A stretch of 64,000 bases of DNA. Source: a virus (Duplodnaviria; Heunggongvirae; Uroviricota; Caudoviricetes). The position numbers and the translations under genes were made by a program. Of this stretch, positions 32,464-32,763 are shown piece by piece; the stretch's first letter is position 1, and each line of letters starts with the position of its first letter. The stretch lies in the IMG/VR virus record IMGVR_UViG_3300042360_000330. The stretch is one strand, 5' to 3'. The notes beneath the pieces were generated by a model. It was not told the DNA's origin, ran no database searches, and saw only the letters and a list, made by a program, of their open reading frames with translations.

Positions 32464-32763
32464 ACAAAGGACTAAATGGCGGTGTCAGGCACCCACTGCA
32501 GAGGGTACAAAGAAGAACCTGCTTTATATGCCTGTGAGATAGCATCTCGCCGGATAACACATTTAGTCATCTTAAAGCCGGTTTGACACTCCGCTTACGG
32601 GAGGTCAGTTTCTGGAGTAGAAACTGGGTTGTAGCAGTAAGATCTTTAAAAGTTTGTGATGTACAAAGTATGGGTTTTGCCTGCAAAGCGTGTTTACTGC
32701 TTATAAACACAACTTGAAAGTATAGAAAGGGGTGTAGGTCCGCTTTAACCGAACCCCTAGTAC
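32464..32763 (+). ncRNA. candidate structured non-coding RNA (about 300 nt, no ORF, no tRNA T-loop)
   Basis: Multiple strong local hairpins: CAGTTTCT-ggagt-AGAAACTG, GTGTTTA-ctgct-TAAACAC, GAGAT-agc-ATCTC, AGGGGT...ACCCCT. Lies between two tRNAs inside the array and has higher GC than its surroundings. Confidence 0.3.

What the first reader, a model, noticed from the sequence alone, without database searches (positions are those of the whole stretch)
32464..32763. About 300-nt highly structured non-coding segment inside the tRNA array (candidate novel ncRNA)
Between two tRNAs, where spacing is otherwise 5-10 nt, lies a 300-nt stretch with no ORF and no GGTTCGA T-loop. It is GC-richer than its surroundings and holds several perfect 5-8 bp hairpins:
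- CAGTTTCT/AGAAACTG
- GTGTTTA/TAAACAC
- GAGAT/ATCTC
- AGGGGT/ACCCCT

It could be a ribozyme, a tmRNA or RNase-P-like RNA, an intron remnant, or a regulatory RNA co-transcribed with the tRNAs. A second, smaller unexplained structured spacer (AGTCATT...AATGACT, GGTAAAG...CTTTACC) lies at 31310-31470.
Basis: seen in the sequence. Interest (0 to 1): 0.6.

Follow-up and report, generated by a model that had tools for sequence, protein, structure and literature searches.

The report
Two small RNA cassettes, tRNA island
The 300-base gap in this Flavobacterium-phage tRNA cluster is two separate non-tRNA RNA cassettes: a ~100-base conserved, folded RNA of a family not in Rfam, and a rare ~190-base hairpin-rich one; neither has a known function.

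Summary
The gap (32465-32763) and the four listed hairpins are real. As one 300-nt unit it is no more stable than shuffled sequence (z -1.2), and it is not one element.

**M104 (32469-32568).**
- It occurs in 14 distinct variants from uncultured relatives of Flavobacterium phage immuto.
- In the 13 related variants it sits between a non-canonical tRNA(CAU) and a tRNA-Met; in this window M190 lies between it and the tRNA-Met.
- Relatives with an empty site have the two tRNAs 5 nt apart.
- A 9-10 bp stem pairs its two ends, and a hairpin of variable length follows the core. Both show compensatory changes.
- A 28-nt core is invariant, although the flanking tRNAs vary.
- It has no Rfam match, is not a tRNA or tmRNA, and is not coding.

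**M190 (32574-32759).**
- One diverged homologue was found (87% identity), in another phage contig that lacks M104.
- Structural support is weak.

**Context.** Other spacers in the same array (30991-31084, 31160-31235, 31311-31470) are also conserved structured RNAs.

**Most likely mechanism.** The cassettes are co-transcribed with the tRNAs and cut out by tRNA-processing enzymes. They would then be stable small RNAs, like T4 RNAC/RNAD. Their function is unknown.

The parts
32395..32464 (+). Non-canonical tRNA-like gene, anticodon CAT, immediately upstream of the cassettes. By my reading of the sequence its acceptor stem carries mismatches (U1.U72, U6.U67, A7.C66). The window-type gene is conserved in many relatives, with compensatory changes in the anticodon stem.
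   Evidence: Rfam tRNA 28.4 bits (threshold 29). ARAGORN calls tRNA-Met(cat) 32395-32465 only at a relaxed threshold. Variants with covarying anticodon stems (CCGGT/GCCGG, CCTGGT/GCCAGG, CTAAGT/GCTTGG and others) are.
32469..32568 (+). M104: a conserved structured RNA cassette. The covariance-model hit, with linkers, spans 32461-32572.
   Evidence: 14 distinct variants. Covariance model R1 scores 114.6 bits here and 123-141 bits in relatives, with nothing between 20 and 114 bits in 517 kb. 93.9% of cells are paired and 6 pairs changed on both sides, against 20-43% paired in slid controls. MFE z = -2.42. No Rfam hit.
32470..32478 (+). M104 P1, 5' strand (GACTAAATG). It pairs with 32560-32568.
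   Evidence: 100% of cells paired in 14 variants. Pair types are G-C/G-U/A-U at one position and C-G/U-A at another. G.U wobbles appear only when read on the + strand.
32479..32526 (+). M104 central domain. It contains the 28-nt invariant core CACCCACTGCAGAGGGTACAAAGAAGAA (32490-32517). Its fold is unresolved: three competing models.
   Evidence: No substitution in the 28-nt run across the variants, while 43% of columns in the downstream linker plus tRNA-Met vary. Model A (GGTG/CACC plus GCAG/CTGC) is thermodynamically favoured but shows no covariation. Model B (CAGR/YCTG plus ACCC/GGGT) has two covarying pairs but base-pair probability 0.00. Model C (GCGGTG/CACTGC) is the single-sequence MFE.
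32527..32556 (+). M104 P3: a hairpin with a conserved base (YATAG..CTATR, GTG..CGC) and a tip that varies in sequence and length.
   Evidence: U-A to C-G change at columns 67/106 in 3 variants, and G-C to C-G at 71/102 in 3 variants. Tip sequences differ but stay self-complementary: GAAAAT/ATTTTTC, GAAAGA/TCTTTTC, GAAAGT/ACTTTTC, GAGAT/ATCTC.
32560..32568 (+). M104 P1, 3' strand (CATTTAGTC).
32574..32759 (+). M190: a second, independent hairpin-rich cassette, absent from all M104-carrying relatives.
   Evidence: No match in 64 loci. One homologue, L067:5015-5201 (-), 87.2% identity over 188 nt, lies directly after a tRNA-like(CAT) with no M104. A contig from sample 3300042311 is 100% identical over 3,754 bp that include this cassette. 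A contig from sample 3300059473, whose DNA was not retrievable, carries the same flanking genes at the same spacing. No Rfam hit. z = -1.20 on + and -2.48 on -.
32606..32626 (+).
   Evidence: Perfect 8-bp stem. In L067 both arms gain one base (TTT to TTTT, AAA to AAAA) and G-C becomes G.U, so 8 pairs are kept (read from the alignment).
32653..32667 (+). M190 inner hairpin H3 (TTTGT-GATGT-ACAAA).
   Evidence: The stem is identical in L067 and the loop is replaced (GATGT to ACCG).
32690..32710 (+). It lies inside a 57-nt block identical in L067.
   Evidence: There is no variation, so the hairpin is neither supported nor refuted.
32728..32758 (+).
   Evidence: In L067 the inner G-C becomes G.U, and the hairpin is followed by a T-rich tract (terminator-like) that is missing here.
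32764..32839 (+). tRNA-Met(CAT) closing the gap. It is a diverged allele of the tRNA-Met that directly follows M104 in relatives.
   Evidence: ARAGORN. Rfam 63 bits. 72.5% identity to the L011 allele over 32764-32909.

Best explanation
The 300-nt gap holds two independent, optional, non-tRNA RNA cassettes inserted one after the other in a mosaic phage tRNA island.

**Shown**
- M104 (32469-32568) belongs to a narrow family with no Rfam match, found in immuto-like Flavobacterium phages.
- Its two ends pair in a 9-10 bp stem (P1).
- It has a hairpin of variable length (P3) and a central domain with a 28-nt invariant core.
- It is read on the tRNA strand and is not coding.
- M190 (32574-32759) is a separate cassette with one known diverged relative.

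**Inferred**
- Both cassettes are transcribed as part of the polycistronic tRNA precursor.
- They are released by the enzymes that mature the neighbouring tRNAs. 3' processing of the upstream tRNA(CAU) would set the 5' end. RNase P cleavage at the 5' end of the downstream tRNA-Met would set the 3' end.
- The P1 stem then clamps the ends and protects the RNA from exonucleases, giving a stable ~100-110-nt RNA.
- The invariant core is the working surface and binds a conserved protein or RNA partner that is still unknown.
- Given the tRNA-repair genes next door, the partner is most plausibly a component of host translation or of tRNA-targeting defence.
- This is the same logic as the stable RNAs C and D of the T4 tRNA cluster.
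For: **Two units**
- Only 32465-32568 matches the relatives.
- 32569-32763 has no match in them.
- The second part does match L067, where it follows a tRNA-like(CAT) without M104.

**Optional cassette**
- L002, L008 and L042 have tRNA(CAT)-AAATT/TAATT-tRNA-Met with nothing in between.
- Presence is patchy among relatives whose phosphoesterase is 80-93% identical.

**RNA structure**
- P1 is 100% paired, with G-C/G-U/A-U and C-G/U-A exchanges.
- P3 has U-A to C-G and G-C to C-G exchanges, and tips of different length that remain hairpins.
- Overall 93.9% of cells are paired, against 20-43% in slid controls. 0/500 shuffles reach the observed covariation score.
- M104 alone has z = -2.42.

**Strand**
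- G.U pairs in P1 and P3, and in M190 H2 and H5, would be A.C mismatches on the other strand.

**Constraint**
- A 28-nt run has no substitution, while 43% of the columns of the adjacent tRNA-Met vary and the upstream tRNA is of three different types.

**Not coding**
- Substitutions fall mostly on first and second codon positions of the only ORF. The variable region has indels that are not multiples of three (my reading of the sequence).

**Not a known family**
-.

**Context**
- Three other spacers in the same array are also conserved structured RNAs.
- A phosphoesterase, an AAA_33 kinase and an RNA ligase follow the array.

**Precedent**
- T4 RNAC and RNAD are small RNAs of unknown function (PMC9697503); that they lie in the T4 tRNA cluster is from my own knowledge.
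- ROOL and GOLLD are encoded near phage tRNA islands (PMC12286853).
Against: - There are no expression data. Transcription, processing sites and stability are all inferred.
- The fold of the invariant central domain is unresolved. The model with covariation has zero thermodynamic probability, and the thermodynamically favoured model has no covariation.
- The 14 variants are closely related, and several compensatory changes may each be a single event.
- The family is tiny: 9 IMG/VR contigs and 9 metagenome contigs, some of them the same contig in both collections. It is absent from all 50,697 deposited phage records.
- M190 rests on two sequences. Its long outer helix is not conserved, and it folds relatively better on the minus strand.
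- No partner, target or phenotype is known. No antisense target was found within the 64-kb window.
Confidence: 0.6

Rival explanations
1. One ~300-nt structured ncRNA (ribozyme, tmRNA-like, RNase-P-like or intron remnant).
For: - The whole stretch is GC-enriched and contains several perfect hairpins.
- In this phage the two parts are adjacent, only about 5 nt apart.
Against: - Each half occurs without the other in relatives.
- The whole stretch has z = -1.2.
- No Rfam family matches at E<=10 on either strand.
- ARAGORN finds no tmRNA there.
- The flanking tRNAs are intact, and empty sites are intergenic.
Confidence: 0.04
2. M104 is a selfish DNA cassette (MITE-like) whose apparent P1 stem is a pair of terminal inverted repeats. 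It has no function as RNA.
For: - Presence and absence are discrete, with clean empty sites.
- It has 9-10 bp terminal inverted repeats.
- It sits in a region with HNH homing-endonuclease genes.
Against: - There is a single copy per genome segment. R1 finds one copy in the 64-kb window and one per locus.
- No target-site duplication is visible at the junctions (read from the sequence).
- The two ends change together in a base-pair-preserving way and use G.U wobbles, which repeats bound by a transposase would not need.
- The internal hairpin P3 also covaries.
- The interior is more conserved than the neighbouring tRNAs.
Confidence: 0.08
3. The cassettes are cis-acting parts of the tRNA precursor. 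They could be decayed tRNA genes, or spacers that guide or insulate RNase P/RNase Z processing or stabilise the transcript. They would not be RNAs that act in trans.
For: - They sit only inside the array, flanked by tRNAs at 4-6 nt.
- The array contains many degenerate tRNA-like genes.
- Under model A, M104 has a cloverleaf-like four-way junction.
- In L067, M190 ends with a terminator-like hairpin plus a T tract.
Against: - The tRNA pair works without the cassette in relatives.
- A 28-nt invariant core is not expected of a spacer or a pseudogene.
- There is no T-loop or anticodon-loop signature, and no tRNA score even at relaxed thresholds.
Confidence: 0.18
4. 32465-32763 encodes a small protein. 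The ORFs are 32476-32586 (36 aa) and 32583-32717 (44 aa).
For: These ORFs exist.
Against: - Across the variants the stop position and reading frame are not kept: the P3 tip has indels of 7-14 nt.
- Substitutions are mostly non-synonymous first- and second-position changes.
- In L067, 1-2 nt indels break the 44-aa frame.
Confidence: 0.02

Closest known systems
Phage T4 RNAC and RNAD (stable 'species 1/2' RNAs of the T4 tRNA gene cluster)
   Same: - Small non-tRNA RNAs encoded with phage tRNA genes, next to a homing-endonuclease gene.
- Presumed to be matured from the tRNA precursor.
- Function still unknown (PMC9697503 calls them 'RNAs of yet unknown functions').
- Their location in the tRNA cluster and the segB neighbour are from my own knowledge.
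   Different: - The host and phage lineage are unrelated.
- No sequence or structure comparison could be made here, so only the genomic logic is shared. Homology is neither shown nor expected.
GOLLD and ROOL RNAs (Rfam families; large ornate RNAs of phages and prophages)
   Same: - Encoded in phages and prophages, 'often near tRNA islands'.
- One GOLLD was first seen downstream of a tRNA-Met.
- No protein partner or function is known (PMC12286853).
   Different: - ROOL is ~580 nt (size from my own knowledge) and many GOLLD members exceed 800 nt (PMC12286853); both have many helices and form multimeric cages.
- M104 is ~100 nt with 3-4 helices, and M190 is ~190 nt.
- There is no Rfam hit to either family at E<=10.
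- Self-assembly of M104 is only a speculation, based on a palindromic CUGCAG in one fold model.
tRNA and tRNA-like genes (RF00005)
   Same: - Same strand, same array, similar GC content.
- Ends paired in a terminal stem.
- Model A gives a four-way junction with 2-nt and 4-nt linkers reminiscent of a cloverleaf.
   Different: - No T-loop, no 7-nt anticodon loop, and a 10-bp terminal stem.
- No tRNA hit at E<=10 and none with ARAGORN at relaxed thresholds.
RNA-based phage anti-defence decoys (pseudo-ToxI, RNA anti-CRISPRs)
   Same: Small phage-encoded non-coding RNAs that act by binding a host factor. This comparison is from my own knowledge and is offered only as a functional analogy.
   Different: - No similarity to a host repeat or antitoxin RNA was shown.
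- The one genome-collection scan with the M104 core found only a chance 20-mer.

Membership tests
tRNA (RF00005) | Cloverleaf with T-loop and 7-nt anticodon loop, scored by a covariance model or ARAGORN | tested here: not met
   No tRNA hit in 32465-32763 at E<=10. ARAGORN at -ps70/-ps80 gives nothing there except one spurious 'intron' model that borrows the 3' half of tRNA-Met.
tmRNA (standard or permuted) | tRNA-like domain with a CCA-ended acceptor, plus a tag reading frame ending in a stop | tested here: not met
   ARAGORN finds no tmRNA in the window. The only Rfam tmRNA_permuted signal is 18 bits at 32172-32327, outside the region. Frames starting at the AAA GAA GAA run have no conserved stop.
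RNase P RNA | Conserved P4 pseudoknot and CR-I to CR-V regions (Rfam models) | tested here: not met
   No hit at E<=10. M104 is only ~100 nt.
Group I / group II intron or intron remnant | Interrupts a host gene; conserved catalytic core | tested here: not met
   The flanking tRNAs are complete. In empty sites the two tRNAs are intact and 5 nt apart. No intron family hit at E<=10.
Small self-cleaving ribozymes (hammerhead, twister, pistol, hatchet, HDV-like) | Family-specific conserved core and fold (Rfam models) | tested here: not met
   No hit at E<=10 on either strand. Cleavage activity itself is not testable here.
GOLLD / ROOL | Rfam covariance model match; size of several hundred nt or more | tested here: not met
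   No hit at E<=10. Sizes are ~100 and ~190 nt.
GOLLD / ROOL | Located in a phage next to a tRNA island | tested here: met
   Both cassettes lie inside a tRNA array with 24 ARAGORN tRNA genes plus two sub-threshold tRNA-like genes, in an immuto-like phage.
Stable RNAs of phage tRNA clusters (T4 RNAC/RNAD type) | Non-tRNA RNA gene on the tRNA strand within the cluster | tested here: met
   Position and strand are shown. G.U wobbles indicate the + strand.
Stable RNAs of phage tRNA clusters (T4 RNAC/RNAD type) | Accumulates as a discrete stable RNA processed from the tRNA precursor | not testable with these tools
   Needs a Northern blot or RNA-seq of infected cells.
MITE-like mobile DNA | Terminal inverted repeats, target-site duplication, multiple dispersed copies | tested here: not met
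   Inverted ends are present. No duplication is visible at the junctions. There is one copy per genome segment.

The most novel reading that the evidence does not exclude
M104 is a trans-acting phage RNA whose invariant hairpin loop A-CUGCAG-A (fold model B) is a self-complementary kissing loop. The ~100-nt RNA would then dimerise or assemble with itself and present its A-rich strand to a host translation or tRNA-defence factor. That would make it a miniature relative, in principle, of the self-assembling ROOL/GOLLD RNAs of phage tRNA islands. The several unrelated structured cassettes in this island (M94, M160, M104, M190) would then be a toolbox of RNA effectors exchanged between phages like the tRNA genes themselves.
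Probability: 0.1. Interest if true: 0.7.

Novelty: new variant of a known kind. Interest (0 to 1): 0.4.

Why it matters
- Phage tRNA clusters have long been known to carry a few non-tRNA RNAs whose function is still unknown: T4 RNAC and RNAD, and later GOLLD and ROOL.
- This island carries at least four sequence-unrelated, conserved, structured cassettes among its tRNAs. They are gained and lost as modules between related phages.
- M104 has a core more conserved than the neighbouring tRNAs.
- If these are effectors rather than spacers, they would widen the set of small phage RNAs that act on host translation or on tRNA-directed defence.
- They are also compact (~100 nt), which makes them easy subjects for structure probing and pull-downs.
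- As it stands, this is a well-supported new RNA motif with narrow distribution and no known function.

Tried and rejected
**Rfam**
- Gathering thresholds on the whole window gave only tRNAs.
- E<=10 on 30100-32900 gave nothing in the region.
- The same negative result came for L024 and L067 and for 11 related loci at gathering thresholds, where all 150 listed matches were tRNAs and 8 lower-scoring matches were not shown.

**Deposited phages**
- blastn against 50,697 phage records found only tRNA-Met similarity to Gordonia phages.

**More divergent M104 copies**
- Covariance model R1 on 49 loci (517 kb) found none.
- A second IMG/VR pattern on the 5' half returned the same nine contigs.

**Host-encoded homologue of the M104 core**
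- One scan of 185,579 species genomes found a single chance 20-mer in a Nitrospinota MAG. It has no model match beyond 23 nt and no tRNAs nearby.

**M190 homologues**
- Three exact-pattern scans found nothing: H2, H5, and the tRNA-Met allele.
- Two scans found only L067.

**Other ideas tested**
- Antisense targets of the invariant core in the window: none beyond chance.
- Homology among the cassettes M76, M94, M104, M160 and M190: local alignment scores are within the shuffle range. The shared ACACCCAC...AGAGGG between M104 and M94 is not significant (p about 0.06).
- Coding potential: rejected.

**Idea not tested**
- 32630-32669 (GTTGTAGC...GTACAAAG) vaguely resembles a type II-C or VI-B CRISPR repeat, which would suggest an RNA anti-CRISPR.
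I give it low weight.

Full report
**1. Where we are**

The window comes from an uncultured relative of Flavobacterium phage vB_FspM_immuto (genus Immutovirus). The phosphoesterase gene just downstream of the finding (32909-33559) is 89% identical in protein to the immuto gene. A JGI metagenome contig from sample 3300042311 is 100% identical over 3,754 bp around the finding.

The finding lies at the 3' end of a + strand tRNA island (28558-32839). ARAGORN tRNAs there. Two more tRNA-like genes fall just under the Rfam threshold: 30115-30183, and 32395-32464 with anticodon CAT.

A phosphoesterase, an AAA_33 kinase and an RNA ligase follow the island, and HNH endonuclease ORFs sit inside it.

**2. 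The observation**

Only ORFs of 47 aa or less overlap it. Its GC content is that of the whole tRNA array, above the coding flanks.

As a single RNA it is not unusually stable. The z-score is -1.20 on the + strand and -2.02 on the - strand. The number of perfect hairpins is only marginally above shuffles, p about 0.05.

The spacing of 5-10 nt holds only for the first 16 tRNAs. The second half of the array has nine other gaps of 47-734 nt.

**3. It is two things, not one**

I fetched 45 related loci anchored on the phosphoesterase. Only the first ~104 nt of the stretch matched them. The remaining ~195 nt matched nothing, by blastn with 7-nt words or by nhmmer.

Exact-pattern scans with the conserved core found 9 IMG/VR contigs and 9 metagenome contigs. 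Together with the window these give 14 distinct variants.

In the other 13 variants the order is tRNA(CAT), then 4-5 nt, then the ~105-118-nt element, then 4-7 nt, then tRNA-Met(CAT). I call the element M104. The upstream tRNA is one of three different types, most often the window's non-canonical gene.

Relatives without the element (L002, L008, L042) have the same two tRNAs separated by AAATT or TAATT. M104 is therefore an optional cassette. Its presence is patchy among relatives at 80-93% phosphoesterase identity.

The second part, M190 (32574-32759), was finally matched in one IMG/VR contig: L067, 87.2% identity over 188 nt. There it follows a tRNA-like(CAT) directly, with no M104. The two parts are therefore independent cassettes that happen to be adjacent in this phage.

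A contig from a second sample (3300059473), whose DNA could not be retrieved, carries the same flanking genes at the same spacing as the window. The arrangement is therefore unlikely to be an assembly artefact.

**4. M104 is a real structured RNA**

- **P1.** Window 32470-32478 pairs with 32560-32568 and joins the two ends. All cells are paired in 14 variants. One position shows G-C, G-U and A-U, and another shows C-G and U-A.
- **P3.** Window 32527-32556 has a conserved base (YAUAG/CUAUR, then GUG/CGC) with U-A to C-G and G-C to C-G exchanges. Its tip differs in sequence and length among lineages but always forms a hairpin.
- **Overall pairing.** For the full proposed structure, 93.9% of cells pair and 6 pairs changed on both sides. 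Slid controls give 20-43% pairing, and 0 of 500 column shuffles reach the covariation score.
- **Stability.** M104 alone folds with z = -2.42.
- **Strand.** G.U wobbles occur only in the + strand reading, which places the RNA on the tRNA strand.
- **Specificity of the model.** Covariance model R1 scores 114-141 bits on the 16 copies. Nothing else scores above 20 bits in 517 kb.
- **Coding.** The only ORF (36 aa) is not conserved in frame or in stop position. Its substitutions are mostly at first and second codon positions.

**5. The invariant core and the unresolved centre**

Columns 30-57 of the alignment correspond to window 32490-32517, sequence CACCCACUGCAGAGGGUACAAAGAAGAA. They show no substitution in any variant. 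By contrast, 43% of the columns of the adjacent linker plus tRNA-Met vary, and the upstream tRNA is of three different types.

The fold of this centre cannot be settled with these data. Three models compete:

| Model | Helices | Shape | Support | Weakness |
|---|---|---|---|---|
| A | GGUG(U)/(R)CACC and GCAG/CUGC | Cloverleaf-like four-way junction | Favoured by RNAalifold and by thermodynamics; mean pair probabilities 0.52 and 0.36 | No covariation; A.G mismatches in two variants |
| B | CAGR/YCUG and ACCC/GGGU | Three-way junction | Two pairs with changes on both sides | Half of one pair's cells are A.G; pair probability 0.00 |
| C | GCGGUG/CACUGC | Single hairpin | Single-sequence MFE in five variants | No covariation tested |

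In model B the loop reads A-CUGCAG-A, a 6-nt palindrome. That would allow a loop-loop dimer. This is a lead, not a result.

**6. M190**

Between the two known copies, the changes fall mainly in loops (H1, and inner H3) and in the 5' half of the long H3 region. A 57-nt block is identical.

H2 (32606-32626) keeps 8 pairs through a one-base insertion in each arm. H5 keeps its inner helix through a G-C to G.U change. Both wobbles favour the + strand.

The long outer helix of the MFE fold is not conserved. The stability z-score is better on the minus strand (-2.48 against -1.20).

In L067, H5 is followed by a T-rich tract, like an intrinsic terminator. That tract is missing here.

With two sequences this cassette can only be called a conserved, probably structured element.

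**7. What it is not**

- Rfam gives no hit in the region at E<=10 on either strand. That covers ribozymes, tmRNA, RNase P, introns, riboswitches, GOLLD and ROOL.
- ARAGORN at relaxed thresholds finds no credible tRNA or tmRNA.
- No deposited phage genome contains either cassette at blastn sensitivity.
- A scan of 185,579 species genomes with the core gave one chance 20-mer.
- The MITE reading of M104 is unlikely. It is single-copy, shows no target duplication, has base-pair-preserving changes at the two ends, and its interior is more conserved than the tRNAs.

**8. The island as a whole**

The other large spacers are also conserved RNAs.

- **M94 (30991-31084).** 15 variants, with 6 pairs showing compensatory changes. 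It is present even in the cultured immuto phage, upstream of its tRNA-Ser.
- **M160 (31311-31470).**
- **M76 (31160-31235).** A tRNA-like cloverleaf in 25 variants. It has a degenerate T arm and an 'anticodon' arm that varies in sequence and length.
- **29328-29550.** Contains two tRNA-like genes that ARAGORN calls only at relaxed thresholds.

The cassettes show no significant similarity to each other.

**9. How it most likely works**

Shown:
- The position, the strand and the cassette nature.
- P1 and P3.
- The invariant core.
- The absence from known families.

Inferred:
- Co-transcription with the tRNAs.
- Release by the processing of the flanking tRNAs, with RNase P at the downstream tRNA and 3' processing of the upstream tRNA.
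- Protection of the ends by P1.
- Action through the invariant core on a conserved partner.

The nearest precedents are T4 RNAC and RNAD, still of unknown function (PMC9697503), and the much larger ROOL and GOLLD RNAs found near phage tRNA islands (PMC12286853). The neighbouring RNA-repair genes suggest a connection with host attack on tRNAs. Nothing tests this here.

**10. Verdict**

Novelty is moderate. This is a new small RNA family, plus a rarer second one, of an already known kind: non-tRNA RNAs of phage tRNA clusters. It has a narrow distribution and no function yet. Interest is 0.4.

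Noticed in passing
window 30991-31084: M94: a conserved 94-nt non-tRNA cassette between tRNA-Cys and tRNA-Leu. There are 15 variants, and 6 pairs show compensatory changes, including a terminal hairpin GUCGC/GCGAC to ACCGC/GCGGU to GCCGC/GCGGC. It starts with a T-loop-like AAGGUUCGACCCUCUACCA. It is also present in the cultured immuto phage (L046:5459-5550), where it partly overlaps an annotated hypothetical CDS. No Rfam hit.
   Followed up: partly
RNAalifold predicts 47 pairs, 7 of them with compensatory changes. 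These include the AGTCATT/AATGACT and GGTAAAG/CTTTACC hairpins. No Rfam hit.
   Followed up: partly
window 31160-31235: M76: a tRNA-like cloverleaf present in 25 distinct variants, the most widespread spacer. It has an 8-bp acceptor stem, a D arm, and a degenerate T arm (CGG-AUACGAAAA-CCG). Its 'anticodon' arm varies in sequence and length among phages. In this window the loop reads GGCUAA(C), containing CUA. ARAGORN and Rfam do not call it.
   Followed up: partly
window 32395-32464: The tRNA-like gene with anticodon CAT has a mismatched acceptor stem (U1.U72, U6.U67, A7.C66, by my reading). It is nevertheless conserved in many relatives, with compensatory changes in the anticodon stem. In 13 of the 14 M104 variants the tRNA just upstream ends in GCUAC (GCAAC in L058). 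Its identity (initiator-like, Ile2 or other) is undetermined.
   Followed up: partly
window 29328-29550 and 30115-30184: Gaps that ARAGORN fills only at relaxed thresholds: a tRNA of unknown type (29382-29455), tRNA-Ser(gct) 29461-29546, and tRNA-Trp(cca) 30115-30184. The array therefore holds more non-canonical tRNA genes than the default call of 24.
   Followed up: partly
window 30277-30783 and 31600-32018: Two HNH endonuclease ORFs lie inside the tRNA island. The second is very AT-rich (GC about 0.21) and, with its surroundings, is shared at 93% identity with only two fetched loci from one lineage (L060, L064). This is typical of free-standing homing endonucleases and may explain the mosaic gain and loss of cassettes.
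   Followed up: no
window 32909-35179: Directly after the island come a metallophosphoesterase (32909-33559), an AAA_33 kinase (33560-33946) and an RNA ligase (34055-35179; PF09414 and PF21189). This looks like an RNA or tRNA heal-and-seal repair set.
   Followed up: no
L024:3170-3400 (also L002, L008, L012, L017, L043, L058): In many relatives the tRNA-Met that follows M104 is itself followed by another conserved, hairpin-rich element (CTCCAATGTAG - variable hairpin - TTATGACTCAGAAATTGAGAATTTGGAGAGTAG...). The variable hairpin covaries between lineages. No Rfam hit at E<=1. It is absent from this window.
   Followed up: partly
window 32082-32155 and 32231-32313: Two further spacers of 74 and 83 nt are not tRNAs by any tool used. 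The first is 100% identical in L008-L010. The second has no match in any fetched locus.
   Followed up: no
L067:5003-5015 (minus strand): In the only other copy of M190, the last hairpin is followed by TTATTTTTATTTTTT and then a fragment of a tRNA-Met gene. This suggests that M190 there ends the tRNA operon with an intrinsic terminator.
   Followed up: no
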